Notes under the pieces: model-generated
Told to the model about the DNA's origin: nothing
The model's input: only the letters and a program-made list of their open reading frames with translations
Database searches by the model: none
DNA from: Eledone cirrhosa
Lineage: Eukaryota
Length of the DNA stretch: 64,000 nucleotides
NCBI GenBank assembly: GCA_964016885.1
Contig: OZ024744.1
Location: forward strand, 13,950,001-14,014,000
Direction: 5' to 3'
Made by a program: the position numbers and the translations under genes
Shown: positions 43,263-64,000 of the stretch, one piece after another
How positions within the stretch are numbered: position 1 is the first letter of the stretch
How the letters are laid out: each line of letters starts with the position of its first letter

Positions 43263-43800
43263 TACACATACATATACATATTTTTTCAAAAATTGCAAAG
43301 AATATATTAACTAGGTATACATCCAAAACCTATCTCAGTCTATGATTACATGACACTCTGCAATCCATCTGTATTAGGATATTAATTTTAAGCCAATTAA
43401 ATTAAGTTTTTAGGTTAACCAAATTTAAAACCAAATTATAAATATATTTCTAAAATGTACATTAATTAGGTCTATAATACTAAAAATTATTTCTCTGTCA
43501 TTGAATACACGATATTTTGTTATATTTTATCTGTAAAGGAATTTTAATAAAAGGTTAAATAAATTAAAATTAATCTATAAATTAATTTACGAAGTATATA
43601 TTAGTAATATTTAAAAGTTTTTCATAATTTATGATTACACAATATTTTATAATCTCATCTGTAGTAGAATTTTAATTAAATTAAATTTATAGGTTAACTA
43701 ACATTTAAATTAAAATATATATTAATTTCTAGAATAATGTTATTAATTAGGTTTATAATATTTAAATGTTTTTCTTAGTTTATGATTACACGATATAATT
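42810..43800 (-). repeat. Degenerate ~110-140-bp AT-rich tandem repeat overlapping the stop codon of element B
   Basis: The motif TATAGGTTAAC.AAATTAAA...ATTAATTTCTA...TTAATTAGGTTTATAATA recurs near 42820, 43045, 43410 and 43690, with weaker copies between. Confidence 0.75.
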
Positions 43801-45770
43801 AATTCCTGTCGTTTATTTAATAGGATATCCTTAGATTTCATTATTTCAAATAGTTCTTGGGAACATAATCTACATTCATTTCTATTATTTTGATAAGGGG
43901 TGGCTCTTTTGAGCACACTCCAGGTCATATCATATTCTATATTCTTATTTTTATAACTATTGATTTTTTCTGCTAGAGATGTTGTATTAGCCAGTGCGGC
44001 ATTTTTAAAACTATGTTTGTGGGTATTAAACCTTGCCTTAAAATTGTTAGAAGTAGCTCCTATATATGAACAAATAGAATCTTTAGTTTTAACATTACAT
44101 TTATAAACTATGTTGTTAACAAGACAATTTCCTTTTAATGGGCAGTTTGCTTTGTTTCTACAGTTACAACCTTTCGTTAATTCTGTATTTGAGGAGATAT
44201 TATGGTTAGTTTGATGTATTGGTGGTATACTTATGGTATTCTTACATTTATATGCATTATAGGCACTTATATTTTGTTTTATGTTATTTGTTGTTGAGTA
44301 TGAGAATTTAACTGTAGACCTATTTAAGATTTGATGGTATTTGTGGTTTGGCGGGAAGTTTTTCTCCAGGATATAAAAAAAATTTTTTAGCAATATTATC
44401 CTTAATTTGTAAATTAAATGGAGCATTATACCAAGTAACCCGTCTATTACGGTTTCTATGTTGTTTATTATTTTTATAGGTTGTATCGTGATGTTTACTA
44501 GGAGGATTAATGTTAATGATCTCACCACGCACATTTTTAGTTAGATTTGTAGATTTAGGTGTTTTATCTTGTTTATTAGGAGTTTTATTATTAACATTTA
44601 TTAGAGTTGTATGATGAGTAGTTTTTTGAGAGTTACTATACTTTATATTAGAAGAGTTGTTGGTATTTTGGGGTATAGTGTGGGTGGCATTTAGGTGTGT
44701 ACTTTTCATTTGGTGTTTGTTGGTAATATTAGGTTGTATGTTTATAGTATTTTTAGTAGAAGGTATATATTCTAATCTATTTTTGTGGCCACTTCTATCT
44801 AGAGCTTCATTATAAAAGGTCGCATTTTTATCAAATATATCTTGGTTAGAAGAAAGGTTAGAAATTCTAAGTGATATATTATATGCAAGGTTTTTAAGGA
44901 TAGATTTAGGGTGATTAGATTGTGAGTGTATGTAGTGTAAGTTTTGGTTGGGTTTATGGTAAGGTTGGTAGATACCCGTAGCTAAGTCTAAAGTTATATC
45001 TAGGAAATTTACTACTTTACTTGTTTTTTCAAAAGTAATATGAAGACCATAATAGTCTTTAAGGAAAGTTCTAATATGCTTTTTGTTTTTTTCTATTTCT
45101 GAAATGCTAAGGTTGTTGGAAAGAAGAAGACAGTCATCACGATATAAACCACCTTTAAGGTGGGGAAAGGAGGCATTTATGTTGAAAAGGAGAAAGAGGC
45201 CCACAAGATCAGTAATTTGGGCGGAATCGCTTGAACCCATAGTAATATCGAATAGATTAGTATATGTGTTTCTGGTCCAGTATTCATTCTGAAATTCAAT
45301 AAGTGTTAGTCTAGCATGTGTAATAATATTAATGTCATCCAAAGTTAAGTTAGATCTATTTTTAGCAAATATCAAAGCTTTGTTCAGGAGTATAGGTGAT
45401 ATAGAAGAATAGTAATTATCTATATCAAATTGTAGAAATGAAGCAGAAGATTTACATCTAATATTTTTAAACCAGTTAATTACCTGGGAAGTGTTTTCCC
45501 AGAGTGGTAAAATAACGTGTTTTCTTATTTGTGGGATGACTCTATCCAAAATTCTTTTGCTAATTATTCCAATATCAGATTTGGAGGGACATATAAGTCT
45601 TATAGAAGGATTTGAGTTAAAGTTTGATTTATGATCCTTCAGGTTGAAGTGTGGTCTTTTCAATGCCAAAGGTTCAGTTCTATCTTCAATGTTTAGTTTT
45701 TTTACTATGTTGTGTGATTTGTTGTTGATGTTGGTGAGTGACGCATTATTAGATTTTTTATAATTTTTCC
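43743..45770 (-). pseudogene. Penelope-like reverse transcriptase / GIY-YIG endonuclease ORF, 5'-truncated, one frameshift
   Basis: RT motifs FLQFDIDNYYSSI, FDITMGSSDSAQITDLVG, GLYRDDCL, VNFLDITLDL. Frameshift in the A/T homopolymers at ~44375-44388. Then CNCRNKANCPLKGNCL, IVYKC...SYIGAT..FKARFNTH, CRLCSQE, LLNKRQE..SCNH. Confidence 0.95.
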
Positions 45771-46012
45771 TATATATATGTATGTGTGTTGTGAATGTAT
45801 GTATATATATATATATATATATATGCATGCGTGTATGTGTGTATATATATATATATGTCTGTATGTGTGTATATGTCTATGTATTTATGTGTATATGTAT
45901 GTGTCTCTATATGTATGTGTGTGTGTATGTGTATGCGTATTTATATGGTGTGTGTATGTATATGTATGTGTATGTATGTGTTTATGTATATGTCTATGTA
46001 TGTGTATGTATA

Positions 46013-47165: not shown

Positions 47166-47608
47166 GATCATTATACCAAAAGCTTATATTTATAAGCAGG
47201 CAGTATTATTGATTTATGTGTTGCAGAAACCCAAATATCGGAGTAGTCCATCTTCCCCGAGGGTCTGGTAACTATTTCAATCATATCTTATTTTGTTTGC
47301 CCGTTTAGCTTGTTCGCTTTTTTGGCTAAGGTGGTTAATGGCTTCTTAACCATCGTATCAGTTTGTATGACCATTTTAACTTATGTTTATAGCTCTGGTA
47401 TCTTCATATCCATTGAGCGCTTGTCAGCACAATACAGAAGTTGCGTTTCGCCAAATTCTACCCGCCGAAATGCGATTCTCGCTAAATTTATATATATATA
47501 TATATATGTGTGAATGAAGTAATTCCGTCGGAAAAGTCCAGGAAAAAAGAGTGCTCTATGTAGGTAACAGAGCTTAATAGTTATGTAATAAACAACACAA
47601 GGCAATTA

Positions 47609-47668
47609 TTCCATTTACCAGTGGTTTCTTAAAAGCAAAAGATTTTGCTTTCAATCCTCAGAATGAAA
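47609..47668 (-). ncRNA. Type I hammerhead ribozyme, canonical core, GUA site
   Basis: Minus strand: TTTCATT-CTGAGGA-TTGAAAGCAAAA TC TTTTGCTTTTAA-GAAA-CC ACT GG-TA-AATGGAA. Confidence 0.85.
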
Positions 47669-47826
47669 AAAATCCTGGTCTGTTTATTGAATTTGGATTT
47701 TTAAAAAAAAATGCAATCTATATGAAAGTGAGGCTGGAGAAGGAAGAAGGAAAGGAAAAATAAAATAAAACTACACATGCAAACACACACACAAAAACAC
47801 GCACACTCACACACAAAAGCATACAT

Positions 47827-48756: not shown

Positions 48757-48887
48757 AATACATACACATACATACACATATACATGTGTGTGTGTGTAAA
48801 ACTCAGTATTAGATAATTCATATGAACCTTACATATACATATATATAGTAGTAAAGTAATAAAGTAATAAGCAAAATAAGGCAATTA

Positions 48888-48948
48888 TTCCATTCACCAG
48901 TGGTTTCTTAAAAGCAAAAATATTTTTCCTTCAATCTTCAGAATGAAA
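48888..48948 (-). ncRNA. Hammerhead ribozyme paralog with GUG site (predicted non-cleaving)
   Basis: Minus strand: TTTCATT-CTGAAGA-TTGAAGGAAAAATATTTTTGCTTTTAA-GAAA-CC ACT GG-TG-AATGGAA. Confidence 0.75.
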
Positions 48949-48989
48949 AAAACCTGGTCTATCTACATATACATACATATACACACACA

Positions 48990-49091
<102 letters not shown>

Positions 49092-49661
49092 CATATATAT
49101 ATATATACACACAAATATACATACACATACACATAGGTATGTGAAGGGCAAGGCAAAAAGAATATATGGGGGGGGGGGGGGGCATAGGAAAAGGTGAAAT
49201 ATAAGGGGAGGTAAGGGAGAAAAATATATATATACAAGAGTACAGAACGTAGATTCAGCAAAATAAAAACCGTAGCAGAAGTAAAGAGCAGGAAAGGAGT
49301 TCAAGGCGGTTGATTTATCATAGGAGTGTCAATCCAGTTACAGATCAGATGCGATTTCAGATGAGGACAGCATCTGAAGATCTCAGTCTTTGAGTTAAGG
49401 CAAGCGGAAGTGGCTCTCAAGTTTTACAAAATCCTATATTTTTCTGTGGTACACAAAGAACAATTCTTTGTGCCCCTTTGGTACTCCCTCGAATGGTCTA
49501 ATATAGACCAATCAATAGAGAACGGGATGTTACTATCCTTGAGTTCCCACACCTTACTTGCGAGGGCCGTTGATGTTCGTTTATCGGAGTGCTTAAAAGA
49601 AGCGACATGTGAGTAAAATCTGGTTTTAAACCTGTCCTGGGTCATACCGACATATCGCTCA

Positions 49662-49712
<51 letters not shown>

Positions 49713-49714
<2 letters not shown>

Positions 49715-50062
49715 TAGCTGAGATACCCAGTTTCGCCAAGGTTAACAAATAATTGTTTCTACTTTTGGCACAAGGCCAGCAATTAACTAGTGCATTAGTG
49801 GTACTTTATTTTATCGACCCCATAAGGATGAAAGGCAAAGTTAACCTCGGTGGGATTTGAACTCAGAATGGCAAGGGCCGTAACTCTATGCGTCAAAGCA
49901 TGGCGTCCGACCCTCTACCGATACTGCCAATCCGCCAAGGTTAACAAATAATAAGAGAAGACCGGCAGAAGAGAAAACGTCTGTATTGAATGCATTGTCT
50001 TGTTTACAGTGTGTGTGTATTGTGTGTGTTGTGTGTGTGCGTGTGTTGTGTGTGTGTTTGTG

Positions 50063-52318: not shown

Positions 52319-53935
52319 CTAACATAGTCTAAATATAGACGGTGCTGCAAACGTTTTGGGCCAGTGGACCCTACGACCTGAACGGGTCGTGGTCTTGTAA
52401 CGTGGCGATGGTGGTGGTGTAGGGACAGGCGATGATGGTGGTTCAGGAACAGGCGTTCGCTCAACAGGCAAATACGAAGGGGTTCGTGGATCAGGAACCA
52501 CAGCGTCCGTATCAAGGTGCGCCTGCTTAAGCCTGTCTATTGTAACTGTCTCCCTGGACCCTTTAATATCTAAAGTGAAATGCTTAGCCGAGCGCGCTAA
52601 GACACGGTAAGGTCCAGTGTAAGGCTGTGTGAGCTGGGGCTTCACAGAATCTTTCCTTACAAAGACATGCGTCCACGAGGCAACATCCCTCGGGACAGCA
52701 GTCTTGACAGTTTGTTTCCTAGTGTCCATTGGCGGCAAATCCTGGAAATATGAGCGCAAACGGGACACGTAGGAAGCGTGATCTTGGGCATCAAGATCGA
52801 TAGGGGCAAGCATTTGCCCGGGCAACGTCAGAGGGGCACCGTACAGTACTTCGGCCGGTGAAAATCCAAAGTCGAACCTCACCGTTGACCGAATCCCTAA
52901 TAGCACAATAAGGAGGTACTCGCTCCAATGCGCCGAGTCCATTGAGGCCATTAAGGAGGCCTTCAGTTGTCGGTGAAAATGCTCCACCATACCATTCGAA
53001 GCGGGATGGTACGCCGAGGTTCTAATGCGTTTAGCACCAATTAATTTTGACAGTTCGAGGAAAAGGCTCGACTCGAACTGTCGTCCACGGTCGGTAGTTA
53101 TTGTGGATGGAAATCCATAACGAGAGATCCATCCAGACACAAGAGCACGCGCTGTTGTCTCAGCTGTGATGTTTTTCAAGGGGATGGCTTCAGGCCATCT
53201 CGAAAAACGGTCAATTATGGTCAGCAGATAAGAATAACCATCGCTGACAAGCCAAGGTCCCACTATATCAATATGAATGTGCGAAAAACGCGCATCTGGG
53301 TTAGTAAAGGTACCCGATTTCTGGCAAGCGACGCAGGAACGGCACCAAGCAGCAATTTCACGCCTCATATTTGGCCAGAAAAATCTAGCTGATATGAGCT
53401 TTGCTGTGACAGAAGATCCTGGATGCGAGAAACCATGTAATGCCAGAAACACGGTCCGACGATGATTCTCTGGAACGAAGGGCCTAGGCACGTCCAAAGA
53501 GACGTCGCAGAGAATTTGGCTAACTGCAGTCGACAGAGGCAAGTATTTCATCTCGCAAGTCGCAAACTCGGGCGATGTAACATCCAATGACTCAAGGGGA
53601 GGCTGATCCGCAGCCAAACGAGTCAGATCTATGTCAGAGGGTGACGAGATAGCTGTCACGGGTAAGCGGGACAAAGCATCGGCCGCTGTATTTAGTGAAC
53701 CCGGAATGTGTTGGATATCACTCGTATATTGCGAGATGAAATCAAGGTGTCTCGTCTCTCTGGGCGAGTATTTATCAGCCTTCGCTCTCAACGCAAAAGT
53801 CAATGGTTTATGGTCAGTGAGGATAGTAAATAGTCTACCCTCTAGCATATGTGAAAAATGTTTCACGGCTAAATAGATGGCCAAAAGCTCTCTTCCAAAG
53901 GTGCTGTAGCGCGTCTCAGCAGGTTTCAGCTTTCT
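52319..53935 (-). pseudogene. Gypsy RNase H - integrase (frameshifted from RT)
   Basis: [32 protein letters not shown] zinc finger (H..SHPG...CVAC), [36 protein letters not shown]. Confidence 0.95.
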
Positions 53936-55520
53936 GGAAAAAAAACTCCAGCGGTTGCTGGTAACCATTGATGTTTTGCTGTAGCACTGCGCCCACAGCG
54001 ATATCCGATACATCAACACAAAGCGTTAGCTTTGCACCGGGTAGCGGGTGAGCCAGTAACGAAGTATTAGCCAAAGCAGTTTTGGCGTGCTGAAAATCAG
54101 CAAGTTGAGTGTCTGTCAAAGAAATGTCTTTGTTCTTCCTCCGACAATTTTTTTTAATTTCTGTCAGGGAGAAAAGCAATCTTGCACAATTTGGCACGAA
54201 ACGCTTATAAAAGTTAATCAGACCTAAGAACTGGCGTAACTGACGTAGTGAGGTCGGTGGAGGCAAATCCTCTATGACCTTAACTCGCTCTAGCCGGGGT
54301 CGAATACCGTCAGCATCGATGACGTGACCCAAGAAAGTCAGTGACTCAGCACCAAAAACACATTTGGGTGCATTAATCTGCACGCTATACGCCTTCAATC
54401 GGCGGAAAAGAAGATTCAAATGGTGCGTATGTTGCTCTTGAGAAGAACTAGCAATGAGCTGGTCGTCAATATAGGTATAGACGAAATCGAGGCCACGAGT
54501 AACCTCATCCATAAACCGCTGAAACGTACTAGCGGCATTCCTTAATCCGAACGGCATGGTCAAAAACTCAAATGACCCAAATGGCGTAACTATAGCCGTT
54601 TTTGGAATGTCCTTTTTATGGACAGGAATTTGATGGTACGCACGAATTAAATCCAGTTTGGAGAATATCTTGCATCCCTGCAACGAAGACGCAAAGTCTT
54701 GCAGATGAGGGATAGGATAACGGTCCGGTTCCGTTATCGAATTTAGGCGTCGATAATCTCCAGTAGGTCTCCAATCGCCAGTCGCTTTCGGTACCATGTG
54801 AAATGGGGACGCCCACGGGCTCGTGGACGGACGAATAATCCCCAACTGCAGCATATGATCAAACTCTGATCGTGCTGCTTTGAGTTTGTCCGGAGGCAAG
54901 CGACGAGGACGAGAAAAAACGGGAGCACCAGTTGTAGATATGAAGTGCTCCGTGGTATAAGTTGGCTCATCAACTCGAAAATTTCCCTGAGTCAGTTGCG
55001 GGAACGAGTTCAACAACGCATGGTAAGTATCACCGGTGTTAGCAAGAAAAAAGGTCGGGCTAACCGTTGGAAATCCTGCTGCCTTGCCAACCACAGTTAA
55101 ACCAGTGATGCCATCAATTAGGCGTTTACGACAGAGGTCCACCGTCAATGAAAAATGGTGGAGAAAATCCGCGCCTAGAATCGGATACGGCAAGGCAGCG
55201 ACAGTAAATATCCATTTAAATTCACGCCGCAGATTAGCACAAGGAGGCCTACAACGGGCGGCTTTGTCACCATATTTGTCATGGTAATAACAATATGGTG
55301 GTTTTGGTGTTTTGGAAAGGCTACGATGGCGAGGAGTTGAATAAGTTCGTGAGCGGCTCCTCTGCCGTCCAAAAGACCTGAATTCCTGGCACAACTCCGC
55401 CATTTGACGAGTCATGGCTTCCATTGTGGTGACTAATTTCTCATCACTCGCTGATGAACGCGATTGAGGAAGAGAAGAGGAAGCAACGTACTTTGGCTTC
55501 GAAGTGTCTCTCTTCGTCAC
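53916..55520 (-). pseudogene. Gypsy gag C-terminus fused to partial protease and RT
   Basis: [18 protein letters not shown] (C-X2-H-X9-C-X3-C), then ILGADFL with no DTG motif, then [35 protein letters not shown]. Frameshift at the A run ~53938-53945. Confidence 0.95.
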
Positions 55521-55522
55521 TT

Positions 55523-55985
55523 CTACAATTTTGTCAGCAGAGACAGCATGTGGTCGAGGGTATTTACCTCTAGCATATGGGCTAGGATCGCCTGTACCTC
55601 TTGAGGTAGGCGAGAGAAGAACAATTGCTTCAGGAAAGGGCTATCCTGATCTTGGGAATCGCTCAATTCCCGCAAATGCCGGAGAAAAGCGGTAGGGGTC
55701 CTGTCACCTAATCGTTCGTCCTCGATCAATGACCGAAAACGACTCTCTACCGACTTACAGTTCCTTCTCAAGATCTCGCCTTTTAAAGACTCATACGTTA
55801 AGTCAGAGGGGGGGGGGGTCTATAATTGGGTATTGGACCGAATCTGCTAGATTAGGGGGAAGTCCGCTAATCAAGACAGCGAGGTGCTGGTCAGACTCGG
55901 TCTTACAGACCGTAAAATACGCCTGTAACTGGGCAAACCACAGCTTAGGTTTTCCGGTAAAGGCGGGAAAATGTGGCGCATTCAT
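55523..55985 (-). pseudogene. Gypsy gag N-terminal part, frameshifted
   Basis: MNAPHFPAFTGKPKLWFAQLQAYF... and LIEDERLGDRTPTAFLRHLREL...[11 protein letters not shown] lie in different frames; G run at ~55807-55818. Confidence 0.85.
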
Positions 55986-58778: not shown

Positions 58779-59509
<731 letters not shown>

Positions 59510-59669
59510 TATGTACACGTACATACGTATATATATACAGACGTACAGTAGTATGTATATATATATACATACATGCACACATATATATATGCACGTATGG
59601 ATTCACCGAACATTTATTATAATGCTCGGTGTGTTTGTAAACAAATGAAATATCGTTTCATTTTTTCCG

Positions 59670-59703
<34 letters not shown>

Positions 59704-60068
59704 TAACAGATTAAATTTTAAGCAAAGAATCGCTGCTTTCATCCTTAACGCGATCTTCTGAAACTAAAAAATCAATTTGTGAACGCAGAACTAAATATTT
59801 CGAAAAGCGTTGCAACCTAAAAAAAAAAACAGGAAGATGATACTTTAGTTCGTGAAGACGTTAGGAATGTCGTATAACCGGAAGTGTTGACATTTGAATA
59901 TTTTAAAGAAGTGAATATTTAAATAATGTCTTTAATCTTTTAACAAAATTCAGTAGACGAAAATACCTTCACTTTTTTACTTGGAAAAAGTTACATCTAG
60001 GGTGCAAATTTGGTGGTGTCTGGTCCAGCCGTTTGGCAGGAAGTTTGTTACATACACACGGCCGTCAG

Positions 60069-60148
<80 letters not shown>

Positions 60149-60196
60149 ATTTTAGAAAATAGCATATATTTTCACTAGCTCTGACACTTGGTAGGT

Positions 60197-60258
60197 GAAC
60201 AGTGAGCTGTACTGATGAAGGGTGATACCTAGAAACATTAGTGTCTGCAGTTCTGTTT
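60197..60258 (+). ncRNA. Type I hammerhead ribozyme, canonical core, GUC site
   Basis: GAACA GT GAGCTGTA-CTGATGA-A GGGT GAT ACCT A-GAAA-CA TTAG TG-TC-TGCAGTTC TGTTT. Confidence 0.82.
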
Positions 60259-60343
60259 AGATGCCAACACAATAGCAAGAATGAGGGGCTCATTCTACTG
60301 ACATGGCTATAAAATTGAGGCTTGTTTGCATAATTTACCGCTC

Positions 60344-60391
<48 letters not shown>

Positions 60392-60595
60392 GAGCGGTAA
60401 ATGGTCGGCTTCGCCACATTCAAATAATAATTTTTTTAAATATTCATTCTACATGACTGAATACAATAAATGTAATCTGAGTTTTTCGAATATTAGTAAT
60501 AACATTCGATTCGTTTGCAATTATGCAAACAAGCCTCAATTTTATAGCCATGTCAGTAGAATGAGCCCCTCATTCTTGCTATTGTGTTGGCATGT

Positions 60596-60657
60596 AAACA
60601 GAACTGCAGACACTAATGTTTCTAGGTATCACCCTTCATCAGTACAGCTCACTGTTC
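60596..60657 (-). ncRNA. Hammerhead ribozyme, inverted copy of 60197-60258
   Basis: Reverse complement of the plus-strand motif, core intact. Confidence 0.82.
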
Positions 60658-60711
60658 ACCTACCAAGTGTCAGAGCTAGTGAAAATATATGCTATTTTCT
60701 AAAATACACAG

Positions 60712-60815
60712 TGACTGATCGGCCTGATTTGCATATTAGCAGACTGGTTGATCAGTCAAATTTGCATATTAGCAGATCCACTGATCAGTCAGATTTGCAT
60801 ATCAGCAGACTGGCC
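60712..60815. repeat. Three 33-bp tandem repeats, each containing the octamer ATTTGCAT
   Basis: ATTTGCAT at 60727, 60760 and 60793 within TGATC.G.C..ATTTGCATAT.AGCAGA. Confidence 0.85.
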
Positions 60816-60828
60816 AATCAGTTTCCTG

Positions 60829-61150
60829 TATACGAGCGGTAAAGGCCAGCTTTGCCACATTCAAATAATAATTTTTAAAAAATTTCGCTCTATATGGCTG
60901 AATACAATAAATGTGATCTGAGTTTTTCGAATATTAATAATTGTTTCTACTTTTGGCACAAGGCCATCAATTACCCAGTACTTGACTGGTACTTTATTTT
61001 ATCGAACCCGTATTATACAAACAAGCCTCATTTTTATAGCCATGTCAGTAGAATGAACCCTTCATTCTTGCTCGTGTTGGCATGTAGAGCTAAAATTAAA
61101 AAAATAATATTATTTGAATGTGGCAAAGCCGGCCATTTATTGCTCATATA
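60829..61150. mobile_element. MITE with ~40-bp terminal inverted repeats and TA flanks
   Basis: TACGAGCGGTAAAGGCCAGCTTTGCCACATTCAAATAATA ... TATTATTTGAATGTGGCAAAGCCGGCCATTTATTGCTCATA. A second left end lies at ~60389, and an internal SINE fragment at ~60940-61010. Confidence 0.7.
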
Positions 61151-61988
61151 GAGGAAACTGACTGGCCAATAACGAAGGAAGTGTGGTAAGGAACCAGATG
61201 GACAATAACGCACCAGAGTACTCAATACTTAGGGTAGTAGAGTGGGTAATAGGAAAATGTTTAACCCCGACGGCAGAGCTCAAACCGTTTCGATGGCTAT
61301 TTCTGGACTAAATTAGAATTTTTAGCGTGGTAATAAATAGCCGAACTTTTCAAGGGGTAATTCCTTATATGGGAAGATTGTAGTTGTCAAAAGGATTGGT
61401 CAAAATTTCTTGTAAACACAATTAAGTCTATCATGGCAGTGGGTAGGAGGTAGGGATGGCTGAATTTGCCTGTAGAACAATGAGGGAGTGGGTGGAGCCG
61501 GTCAAGCGTTGAAAGTGAATTCTATAAAGCAAATTCTAAGGAGTGTGTATGAAATTAGGCTAGTTAGAAAGCAGGCGAAAAAGAATTCTGGGGATATTTG
61601 AGAGTGGGACGTTATAAAGTTAAAAGGTTAATAAATTGAGATTAAAAGATAATAAATAAAAAATAATAGAAAAACTTAAATAGTAATAAATAATAAAAAA
61701 TAAAAAATCTAGAGTCTAAAGCAGCTGCTATATTTTTAGCTGGTAATGCGTTATCGGCTAATGCTATATAGAATTTACTGGAGTGGGGTACAGAGGCTAC
61801 CGAAGCCCGATGGGTTGCCTCAGGGTAGGCGAAAGAAGAAAAAAGGAAAAGGAAGAGGAGAGGGAGTGGAAGGAAGTGATAAGAAGAGATAAAGGGAAAA
61901 AAGAAAAGAAGTACATCTACCTATGTATGGTGGTGTTTCCCCTATCTTGTTTGACAAGTGGGGAAAAGAAGGATGTTGCAGTCATTGT

Positions 61989-63345
61989 CTACACACCCGG
62001 GTCATGAGGGGGTTTGAGGGCGAGGTAAGTCCTATGCAATCGGTGTTTACATGCAGATACGAGTTCGTCTTTTTTGTTTAGGAGTTGGTCCTTCGTAAAC
62101 AGCATTTGTATTGTTTCCTCCGAGCATAAGTTACACGGACGTCATCCTCCCGTGTAGGAATTAGCCCTGGAAAGTAAGCTCCAAGTAAGATTGTATGTTA
62201 TGTTGTTATATTAGAGGTCCCAGATGTGGCCCGAAACTGTAGTGGCATGTCGCCGGGCCGGGTTTCGGAACGTATGTTGGTGTTGGTAGAGCCGGGTCTT
62301 AAAGTCACAAGCGGTTAATCCTATATAGGCTTTGTTTGAGTTTTCCGCCCTCGCGTTGTATTGGTAGATCACATTACGTCCTCGGCATCTGTTATTGAGG
62401 GGGCACGCAGATCTATCAGGGCAGTTACACCTCCTGGTCGGCTCTCCACTAATGTCTAGGTTGTTTCTTCCATAGGAGTTGAGTTTCTTGTTGTTTCAGG
62501 GGGCGATGTTTTGTGCGAAGTTGGGTGTGGTGCTGTAAGAGAGTTTGATAGTGTTTTTGTTGATTATGTTGTGGTAGCGGTGTTGTGGTGGGAAGTGTTT
62601 TTAGAGGGGCCTAAAGAAGATTTCCCGATTGGTGTTGCCACCGCGGTATTGTGGGGAGGGTTAAACCACGTTACGTGGCGTGAGCGGCGGTGTCGCCTGC
62701 TGGTTCCGCTAAGGGAAGCTGGATAAAAATGGATTTCCTCCCGAAAGCCGCTTCGATTGAGGGCCTGGTTGTAATAAGGCGCATGTTCATCGAATATCTG
62801 TTCATTAGTGGACAAACGAGATTTGCGGAGGGAGATCTTTTTAACCAGGTTATTGGTGATGTTTCCAGGATGGTTAGAGCGGCGGTGGATGTAGTGAAGG
62901 TTGTCGTTTGGTTTCCTGTGTGGGTAGTACAGATCATTTTCGAGGTTGAGGGTAACGTCTAGGAAATTGATTCGGGTTAGAGACGTTTGTAAGGTGATTT
63001 TAAATCCCCAGTCCCGGAAGAAGTTGATTAGTTGTTTACGGACCCGGTCTGTACTACTGGCGTTGTACCCTTTGAGGGTAAATAGCCCATCGTCTCGGTA
63101 CAATCCACCGCCGAATGCAGGAAACATTTCGGTGAGTTTATATAGTAGGAACAATCCTTTAAGATCGGTCACCTCGGCCGAGTCGGTCGCGCCCATACTG
63201 ACGTCAAAGGAGGAGTCGGGAGCTCTCTTTATCCACTTGGAGTTGTCGAAAAGTAGGACTGTCTTCCTCGCGTGGAGAATGATGTTTCTTTCCTGGTCGG
63301 TAATGGGTGTGAGTGTTTTGACAAAGTCCAAAGTGGCCGTAAGGA
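61989..63345 (-). pseudogene. Penelope-like RT plus GIY-YIG (element E), truncated and frameshifted
   Basis: FDVSMGATDSAEVTDL, GLYRDDGL, INFLDVTLNL, VTWFNPP. Downstream: KLSYSTTPN, CNCPDRSACPLNNRC, VIYQ...AYIGLT..FKTRLYQH, CNLCSEE, LLNKKDELVSACKH, with stops. Confidence 0.93.
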
Positions 63346-63464
63346 GCGTTTTTCGAAATATTTACTTCTGCATTCACAGATTGATTTTTTTTAGTTTCAG
63401 AAAATCCCGTTAAGAGTGAAAGCAGCGATTCTTTGCTTAAACTTTAATCTGTTATTTTAATATA

Positions 63465-64000
63465 TATATATAATTATATATTCGTGTACAGATATTTTTA
63501 CATACACAAAAACAAAATATAAACAAACGTATTTATTTCACGAAAGCACAGACGGCTTATCGTCATTGTTACCGCCGATATGCCACCCAAAATGTCCCAC
63601 TACTTTTGGCACATGGCCAGCAATTACATAGTCAACGGTTCGGAAATCACATGCATCACTGACGAGCTTACTCCTTACTCTACCAGTTAGTCTTAGTGTA
63701 CTTCGTCCTGCTTTTAGGTCATACCTTGATGGAAAAGATACTCCATTGGCCGAAAAAGAACAAGGCGGGCAAATGAATCGTCAGTGGAATCTGCTATTCG
63801 ACGGTCGCAAGATGCCACCAAAAGAGCACGTGAAACAGACAACCAGCGAACCATTCGCCGAACCGTGTCAGCTTTGCAATGTCTATCAACAAATCCCAGG
63901 GTCAGACTCTAGCTGTTGCTGGTCTTCTTTTGGAAGAGTCATGTTTTTCACACGGGCAACTATACGTTGGCTGCTCAAGAGTGGGAAGCAAGACAAATCT
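63465..64000 (+). mobile_element. Helitron-derived sequence with Pif1-like helicase C-terminal motifs (runs off the window)
   Basis: RVSFAMSINKSQGQTLAVAGLLLEESCFSHGQLYVGCSRVG at ~63863-63985. The first ~135 bp is an inverted homolog of 50940-51075. Confidence 0.8.

What the first reader, a model, noticed from the sequence alone, without database searches (positions are those of the whole stretch)
60144..60830. Ribozyme cassette with triple octamer motif inside a MITE-like frame
Seen: a canonical GUC hammerhead occurs twice in inverted orientation around (TA)n. It adjoins an AGAATGAG/CTCATTCT hairpin and MITE-like termini (TACGAGCGGTAAA), and no RT is attached. Three ATTTGCAT octamers lie 70-140 bp upstream of the minus-strand copy. 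Knowledge: octamers are distal elements of snRNA-type promoters, and the hammerhead-containing newt satellite 2 is reported to use such a promoter. Inference: this may be a self-transcribing, self-cleaving small element, possibly carried by a DNA transposon. The related MITE at 60829 lacks the ribozyme.
Basis: partly seen in the sequence, partly recalled or inferred. Interest (0 to 1): 0.7.

Follow-up and report, generated by a model that had tools for sequence, protein, structure and literature searches.

The report
Retrozyme carrying its own snRNA promoter
This is one copy of an abundant short jumping repeat that holds a hammerhead ribozyme motif and, inside each unit, the same short promoter motifs as the host's own small-nuclear-RNA genes; it is likely transcribed from them and likely pasted into TA repeats by Penelope-type enzymes, and it is not a DNA-transposon (MITE) cargo.

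Summary
The motifs are real; the MITE frame is not. Window 60389-60830 (minus strand) is one 442-nt unit of a non-coding repeat with at least 1,148 exact ribozyme cores in this 3.0-Gb genome. Units run head-to-tail, end in (TA)n at two sites about 35 nt apart, and pair head-to-head (108 joins against 2 tail-to-tail). That is a Penelope-type insertion footprint; the 'TIRs' are unit tail reused by inversion. The type I hammerhead is intact but looks weak (A·A at the base of stem II, 3-bp palindromic stem III). Copy 5' ends pile up just 3' of its cut site (28 of 69, about four times background). The triple octamer is a 33-bp minisatellite and usually imperfect. The last repeat, however, matches the host's U6 octamer box, the ATCAGT box of host U1/U2/U4/U5 and a TATA box, and three other diverged hammerhead families keep octamer and TATA at nearly the same spacing. 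Best reading: a self-promoted metazoan retrozyme, like newt satellite 2. No transcript, cleavage or partner enzyme is shown. The scan noted this layout before on another piece of this genome.

The parts
60389..60830 (-). One complete 442-nt unit (u1 = 60830, u442 = 60389; window position = 60831 - u)
60715..60822 (-). 33-bp minisatellite, 3.3 copies, each with an octamer and a GATCA motif; up to 12 copies at another locus
60727..60734 (-). Proximal octamer ATGCAAAT (u97), same box as host U6 genes at -76 to -78
60714..60719 (-). ATCAGT box (u112), as in host U1/U2/U4/U5 at -55 to -59
60685..60689 (-). TATA-like box (u142)
60661..60664 (-). Predicted transcription start (u167-170, GGCAG in the family majority), also the outer end of stem I; inferred
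60589..60664 (-). Type I hammerhead with extended stem I; core CUGAUGA 60642-60636; predicted cut between 60609 and 60608
60558..60576 (-). 8-bp hairpin whose innermost pair changes on both sides (A-T 211, G-C 50, G-T 15 copies)
60426..60470 (-). Zone where most family copies end (u361-405); many copies carry a T run at u391-405 (candidate terminator), this copy does not and runs on to u442
60345..60390 (.). (TA)23 between the two inverted copies
60144..60346 (+). Inverted duplicate of u121-312 joined to u430-442; has TATA and hammerhead (core 60212), lacks octamer and ATCAGT; 191 of 192 nt identical to the main copy
60831..60941 (-). Tail of the upstream tandem unit (u331-442); the left half of the supposed MITE
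60942..61011 (-). Remnant of a SINE-like repeat carried inside a subfamily of the unit; 88% like a free copy at 49748-49824 (SINE label is my reading)
61012..61086 (-). u235-311 of the upstream unit; the insertion's 5' end, 12 nt 3' of the upstream cut site
61081..61168 (+). Head-to-head inverted partner (u376-442 and u1-20); gives the false right TIR
60072..60138 (.). (TA)33 flank

Best explanation
The locus is a copy of a 442-nt, non-coding, tandemly joined repeat with a type I hammerhead motif and host-snRNA-like promoter motifs, likely a non-autonomous retroelement (metazoan retrozyme) that would be transcribed from its own promoter and copied into (TA)n by a Penelope-like reverse transcriptase/endonuclease supplied in trans. 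Shown: unit anatomy, copy number, tandem and head-to-head joins, end distributions, motif matches to host snRNA genes, and the same layout in three other families. Inferred steps: (1) octamer + ATCAGT + TATA start a roughly 230-nt RNA at u167-170; I favour Pol III (about 60:30 over snRNA-type Pol II, 10 neither), stopping leakily at the T run u391-405. (2) Because the promoter lies upstream of the start, only RNA that reads through into the next tandem unit (or a circle made from it) can rebuild a promoter; this is why copies are partial tandems. (3) The hammerhead cuts only part of the RNA (A·A mismatch, core-trapping fold, palindromic stem III suited to dimers); cut RNA gives the copies that begin at u223-236, uncut RNA gives promoter-bearing copies. 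(4) A Penelope-type protein primes cDNA on both strands of a cut (TA)n at u~365 or u~400; the two cDNAs join head-to-head. The window's tail-to-tail twin is likely a later local fold-back duplication.
For: 1,148 exact 34-nt cores and 2,473 exact 25-mers genome-wide, reversed controls 0. Longest continuous piece exceeds one unit in 35 of 78 loci. 262 of 365 segments end in u361-410, peaks 128 at u361-370 and 122 at u381-400, mostly into (TA)n; PLE 'tail' of 30-40 nt between two RT starts and extension of both strands in PMC11167929; tandem/inverted insertions and (TA)n targets in PMC8557442. Head-to-head 108, tail-to-tail 2. 5' ends in u219-236: 32 of 100 and 28 of 69 at risk against 0.0052 per nt elsewhere, binomial P 1.8e-12. 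Host ATCAGT (exact in 11, one mismatch in 5 of 16 promoter types) at -55 to -59; a matrix from them scores u112 best, 13.4 bits, 0 of 300 shuffles, predicting a start at u167-171. Host U6 octamer at -76 to -78 in three promoter types. Three families with no real similarity to the unit carry the octamer 88-100 nt before the core (target 92) and TATA 42-43 nt after it (target 45). 5' ends at u160-171: 8 of 78 at risk, and the 3 longest pooled copies. Common variants keep the pairing of stem I and the hairpin.
Against: No transcript, start site or cleavage was observed. No autonomous partner was found: Penelope-like fragments lie in some flanks at no fixed position (92 loci). The 5' pile-up also coincides with the 3' strand of a strong stem and with two 4-nt palindromes; at least 5 of the 28 are fold-backs at CATG; the two samples overlap and are the first 100 exact matches on one chromosome. 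The matrix window was chosen after seeing the match, TA-rich ends of another family score as high (14.7), and with the host's upstream AATTAAAT box included the unit fails. Octamer-to-TATA distance is 47-48 in host U6 (counted), 2-6 nt longer than in the repeats; 14 other U6 matches lack the box at that place. Absence of TTTT in u167-386 is not significant (1,630 of 5,000 shuffles). 7 of 26 long segments begin upstream of the predicted start, five of them apparently real. The active monomer fold is 7-8 kcal/mol above the minimum fold.
Confidence: 0.72

Rival explanations
1. Same retrozyme, but the promoter-like motifs are inactive or vestigial and the RNA comes from read-through host transcription; the 5' pile-up reflects reverse-transcriptase stalling and fold-back in stem I, not cleavage.
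For: No RNA evidence; pile-up zone equals the 3' strand of stem I; several junctions are fold-backs at TGCA or CATG; spacing differs from host U6; A·A mismatch and trapped core; hammerhead cleavage was dispensable for insertion in vitro in PMC11167929.
Against: Octamer and TATA kept at nearly fixed distance in four otherwise dissimilar families; sharp upstream edge at u221-223 with 6 ends at u223 in 145 pooled; some ends abut (TA)n or unique DNA at u223-228; other palindromes in the 33-bp repeats give no such peak.
Confidence: 0.15
2. The unit is the pseudo-LTR of an autonomous Penelope-like element, and the copies are its 5'-truncated ends.
For: Partial tandems, inversions, tail and hammerhead are all pLTR features; Penelope-like ORF fragments occur nearby.
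Against: Upstream of a unit lies another unit, never a constant ORF end; two 7-kb pairs held only broken, unrelated ORFs; the ribozyme is of the canonical long-stem-I type, not the minimal PLE type.
Confidence: 0.08
3. One reading: a ribozyme cassette carried by a MITE or DNA transposon with TACGAGCGGTAAA termini.
For: In this window the 13-mer faces itself across (TA)23, and 60811-60896 is 83% inverted to 61081-61168.
Against: Only 3 of 365 segments end there; both ends of copies vary; the 'TIRs' continue into unit sequence; tail-to-tail joins are 2 against 108.
Confidence: 0.03

Closest known systems
Metazoan non-LTR retrozymes (Cervera and de la Peña 2020, PMC7229834; parts 2-4 of 6 and term search read, supplement not read)
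   Same: Short non-coding tandem unit (their range 150-450 bp), canonical type I hammerhead with short palindromic stem III, thousands of copies, low GC; a mismatch at the base of stem II as in axolotl HHR_Amex2 (U·U there, A·A here); PLEs proposed as the mobiliser.
   Different: Here mostly dispersed partial tandems and head-to-head pairs in (TA)n, not long arrays; the main text names no promoter and no cephalopod; circular RNA and cleavage were shown there, not here.
Newt satellite 2 (Coats, Zhang, Epstein 1994; paper not held; known only from its title and citation in PMC2220036, and a remark in PMC6765202)
   Same: Hammerhead repeat with an internal snRNA-type promoter.
   Different: Reported as Pol II; here the conserved part is the host's U6-type proximal octamer plus TATA, mixed with the U1/U2-type ATCAGT box. 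That satellite 2 uses an octamer is recalled, not read.
Schistosoma Sm-alpha hammerhead SINEs (as reviewed in PMC6765202, passages read)
   Same: Pol III promoter plus hammerhead; the upstream unit of a tandem transcribes the next one.
   Different: That Sm-alpha uses a tRNA-type internal promoter is recalled; here the motifs are upstream snRNA-gene boxes.
Penelope-like elements and their non-autonomous forms (PMC8557442 passages; PMC11167929 parts 1-2 of 4; PMC4209133 part 1 of 4)
   Same: Partial tandem, 5'-truncated inverted partner, 30-40-nt optional tail, (TA)n preference (Naiad).
   Different: No ORF; canonical rather than minimal hammerhead; the donor family is not identified.

Membership tests
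Type I hammerhead ribozyme | Core CUGANGA...GAAA...UH with stems I-III | tested here: met
   8-bp stem I plus extension, 4-bp stem II, 3-bp stem III, GUC
Type I hammerhead ribozyme | Standard pair at 10.1-11.1 | tested here: not met
   A·A in 196 copies; a U·U variant still cleaves weakly in PMC7229834
Type I hammerhead ribozyme | Self-cleavage at the predicted site | not testable with these tools
   only indirect: 5' end pile-up
Metazoan non-LTR retrozyme | Short non-coding tandem unit with a canonical type I hammerhead, many copies | tested here: met
Metazoan non-LTR retrozyme | Expressed as linear and circular monomer RNA | not testable with these tools
   no run on record as RNA was listed
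Metazoan non-LTR retrozyme | No LTR, PBS or PPT | tested here: inconclusive
   no fixed ends or internal region seen; PBS and PPT were not searched for
Penelope-mobilised element | Partial tandem with inverted 5'-truncated partner | tested here: met
Penelope-mobilised element | Two 3' ends 30-40 nt apart (tail) | tested here: met
   peaks at u~365 and u~400; a terminator could explain the second
Penelope-mobilised element | Autonomous RT/GIY-YIG partner sharing end sequence | tested here: inconclusive
   none found in 92 loci; not searched genome-wide
MITE | Fixed terminal inverted repeats with target duplication | tested here: not met
snRNA-type promoter | Host proximal element at host spacing | tested here: met
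   ATCAGT + TATA matrix 13.4 bits, 0 of 300 shuffles, window chosen post hoc; octamer as in U6
snRNA-type promoter | Host upstream AATTAAAT box of U1/U2/U4/U5 | tested here: not met
   extended matrix fails
snRNA-type promoter | Octamer as distal enhancer element | tested here: not met
   proximal in host U6, absent upstream of U1/U2/U4/U5
snRNA-type promoter | Drives transcription; polymerase identity | not testable with these tools
   needs reporter and inhibitor tests

The most novel reading that the evidence does not exclude
A group of invertebrate retrozymes carries a hybrid snRNA promoter (U6-type octamer and TATA plus the U1/U2-type box) and solves the problem of an external promoter by leaky termination into the next tandem unit, with a deliberately weak hammerhead setting the share of cut RNA against promoter-bearing template. 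The genome's thousands of copy ends record the start site, the cut site and the two Penelope priming sites, which would be direct genomic evidence that Penelope-like enzymes mobilise metazoan retrozymes and that their ribozyme cuts in the germ line.
Probability: 0.35. Interest if true: 0.7.

Novelty: new variant of a known kind. Interest (0 to 1): 0.5.

Why it matters
Two questions are left open in the retrozyme literature I read: what transcribes metazoan retrozymes and which enzyme inserts them (PMC7229834 names PLEs as a candidate only). This family gives exact, testable positions for both: a predicted start, a cut site, two priming sites and host-matched promoter boxes, repeated in several families of one genome. 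It also yields candidate U1/U2/U4/U5 and U6 promoter boxes for this animal. I found no paper on this family or on an snRNA-type promoter in an invertebrate retrozyme, but the concept has a precedent in newt satellite 2, Repbase was not searchable, and supplements were not read.

Tried and rejected
MITE reading: rejected. Rfam: no hammerhead match, only miRNA models hitting (TA)n below cut-off. Autonomous partner: two loci with ribozyme copies 7 kb apart held only broken unrelated ORFs. Pfam on four window ORF fragments gave one weak GIY-YIG hit below cut-off and the PDB search gave nothing, so 'Penelope-like' for these fragments rests on my reading of their motifs. RNA: no RNA holder listed. 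Contigs of three runs of one sample cover the stretch but none spans it, so they say nothing on the inverted twin. Circle versus linear multimer: tandem units of one locus share diagnostic letters (19% differ against 45% between loci; head-to-head partners 15% against 47%), which fits both. TTTT avoidance: not significant. Extended promoter matrix: failed. Coats et al. 1994 is not held. Earlier-finding look-ups by sequence and relatives were empty. Rows dropped: 14 loci (12 overlapping or near-identical, and the two long ones); the two long loci and identical segments; near-identical snRNA upstreams and U6 loci were left out of the matrix.

Full report
Observation. The two inverted arms 60144-60335 and 60519-60710 differ at one of 192 bases. 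Each holds CUGAUGA, GAAA and GUC with an 8-bp stem I that extends to about 19 pairs, a 4-bp stem II and a 3-bp stem III. Rfam gave no hammerhead match. The three octamers are real but lie in a 33-bp tandem repeat; as a count they are within chance for 64 kb. No ORF is attached.

The family. The stretch is highly repeated in its 3.0-Gb genome: 1,494 first-look candidates, 1,148 exact 34-nt cores, 2,473 and 2,482 exact matches of two downstream motifs, with reversed controls at 0. The repeat landscape reminded me of an octopus; that is recalled and untested. Mapping loci on the window shows a 442-nt unit (u1 = 60830, minus strand) whose end joins its own start: the longest piece exceeds one unit in 35 of 78 loci. 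Of 365 unique segments from 209 loci, 262 end in u361-410, with peaks near u365 and u381-400; the second peak's true end lies near u400-407, and most ends run into (TA)n. Adjacent opposite-strand pieces are head-to-head 108 times and tail-to-tail twice, once being this window. These are the partial tandems, inverted partners, optional 30-40-nt tail and (TA)n preference described for Penelope-like elements (passages), and they fit two reverse-transcription starts and extension of both target strands in vitro (parts 1-2 of 4).

No MITE. Only 3 of 365 segments end at the supposed terminus. The 'MITE at 60829' resolves into the tail of the upstream unit, a SINE-like remnant that a subfamily carries at u330-345, u235-311, and a head-to-head partner whose u376-442 gives the false right TIR and which continues into u1-20. 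The twin at 60144 is 99.5% identical to the main copy while head-to-head partners differ by 7.3% on average, so it is likely a later local duplication or was homogenised. An assembly artefact is not excluded.

Ribozyme. A·A stands at the base of stem II in 196 copies; common variants in stem I keep pairing, and the downstream hairpin's inner pair switches A-T to G-C (211 and 50 copies). The minimum fold traps the core and is 7-8 kcal/mol below the active monomer fold, while the stem III decamer is self-complementary (-8.8 kcal/mol as a duplex). This resembles the weak, dimer-helped axolotl ribozymes. In samples anchored downstream of the ribozyme, 5' ends fall in u219-236 in 32 of 100 and 28 of 69 at risk, against 0.0052 per base elsewhere (P 1.8e-12); the cut site is u222/223. 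Against over-reading: the samples overlap, come from one chromosome and need exact motifs; the zone is also the 3' strand of the long stem; at least 5 of the 28 are fold-backs at a CATG palindrome.

Promoter. With the ribozyme as anchor, 15 of 30 loci had an exact octamer 60-200 nt upstream and none had three; the rest were mostly 5'-truncated. The middle octamer is usually ATGCAGAT. To test the snRNA idea I fetched host snRNA genes. U1, U2, U4 and U5 share ATCAGT at -55 to -59, an AATTAAAT-like box near -88 and a TATA-like stretch near -30, and have no octamer within 380 nt; three U6 promoter types have ATGC(A/T)AAT at -76 to -78 and TATA near -30, while 14 dispersed U6 matches do not. A matrix from 16 Pol II promoter types scores u112 on the ribozyme strand best (13.4 bits; 0 of 300 shuffles; host leave-family-out scores -15.6 to 18.0). 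The window was chosen post hoc, and the unit fails when the upstream box is included. The predicted start, u167-171, is the outer end of stem I, and RNA from there to u400 folds into the ribozyme hairpin plus a closed 3' domain. 5' ends are mildly enriched at u160-171 (8 of 78; the 3 longest pooled copies), but 7 of 26 long segments start further upstream.

Other families. Prompted by an earlier scan note, I scanned 869 kb of held loci and found three more canonical hammerhead families with no real similarity to the unit, each with the octamer 88-100 nt before the core and TATA 42-43 nt after it (target 92 and 45); two show tandem units of 470 and 484 nt. ATCAGT at octamer+15 is not kept in the three seed copies but appears in a relative of one and, by eye, in two decayed families among 30 loci selected for that motif. 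Host U6 spacing is 47-48, so the fit is close, not exact. I favour Pol III because the U6-type box is the conserved one and a T run coincides with the second 3' peak; TTTT avoidance alone is not significant.

Mechanism and verdict. Most likely a self-promoted, non-autonomous retrozyme: start near 60664, partial self-cleavage at 60609/60608, leaky stop near 60430, read-through over a tandem rebuilding the promoter, and two-sided Penelope-type priming in (TA)n. All steps involving RNA or protein are inferred. No partner ORF was found in 92 loci. It works like the retrozymes of PMC7229834 and like newt satellite 2 and Sm-alpha; membership lacks the RNA tests. Further papers seen as passages only: PMC6155905, PMC2837043, PMC10886601; PMC4209133 part 1 of 4. 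No supplement was read; that of PMC7229834 could list related elements. Rated a new variant of a known kind, interest 0.5.

Noticed in passing
window 1-37195: Satellite array, 89-bp unit, 417 copies, 92% matches.
   Followed up: no
window 59000-59430, 59691-59830, 63341-63470: A second (TA)n-flanked repeat family in inverted pairs with a hammerhead-like CAGAAGA...GAAA motif; one copy abuts a Penelope-like ORF fragment (62564-63361, minus) in inverted orientation. Earlier scan notes describe rearranged hammerheads in such families.
   Followed up: no
window 47600-47690 and 48860-48965 (minus): A third repeat with CTGA(A/G)GA...GAAA and flanking pairing.
   Followed up: no
window 43746-45873 (minus): Frameshifted Penelope-like RT followed by a GIY-YIG-like region; a further GIY-YIG fragment at 49427-49738 (labels mostly my reading).
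   Followed up: partly
window 49731-49947 (minus): Free copy of the SINE-like repeat with an 18-nt flanking duplication; the same repeat sits inside a subfamily of the target unit and in two U6 promoters (L266, L267).
   Followed up: partly
window 52319-55640 (minus): LTR-retrotransposon-like RT and integrase ORFs in two frames (label by eye).
   Followed up: no
L103/L194, L182/L219/L177/L041/L330, L080/L318/L226, L317/L341, L323/L330/L342: Further octamer-bearing hammerhead or decayed-hammerhead families; window 59500-59660 looks like an inverted 3' fragment of the L182 family.
   Followed up: partly
L248-L315 (host snRNA genes): Candidate promoter boxes of this animal: AATTAAAT near -88, ATCAGT at -55 to -59 and TATA near -30 for U1/U2/U4/U5; ATGC(A/T)AAT(T/G)AG at -76 to -78 and TATA for U6; TTACCTCCCTT about -260 in some U2 and U6 genes.
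   Followed up: partly
G000:C1:153407898-153408286 (L182): The 33-bp promoter repeat expanded to 12 copies.
   Followed up: no
window 61170-61345: Another very abundant repeat directly after the inverted partner.
   Followed up: no
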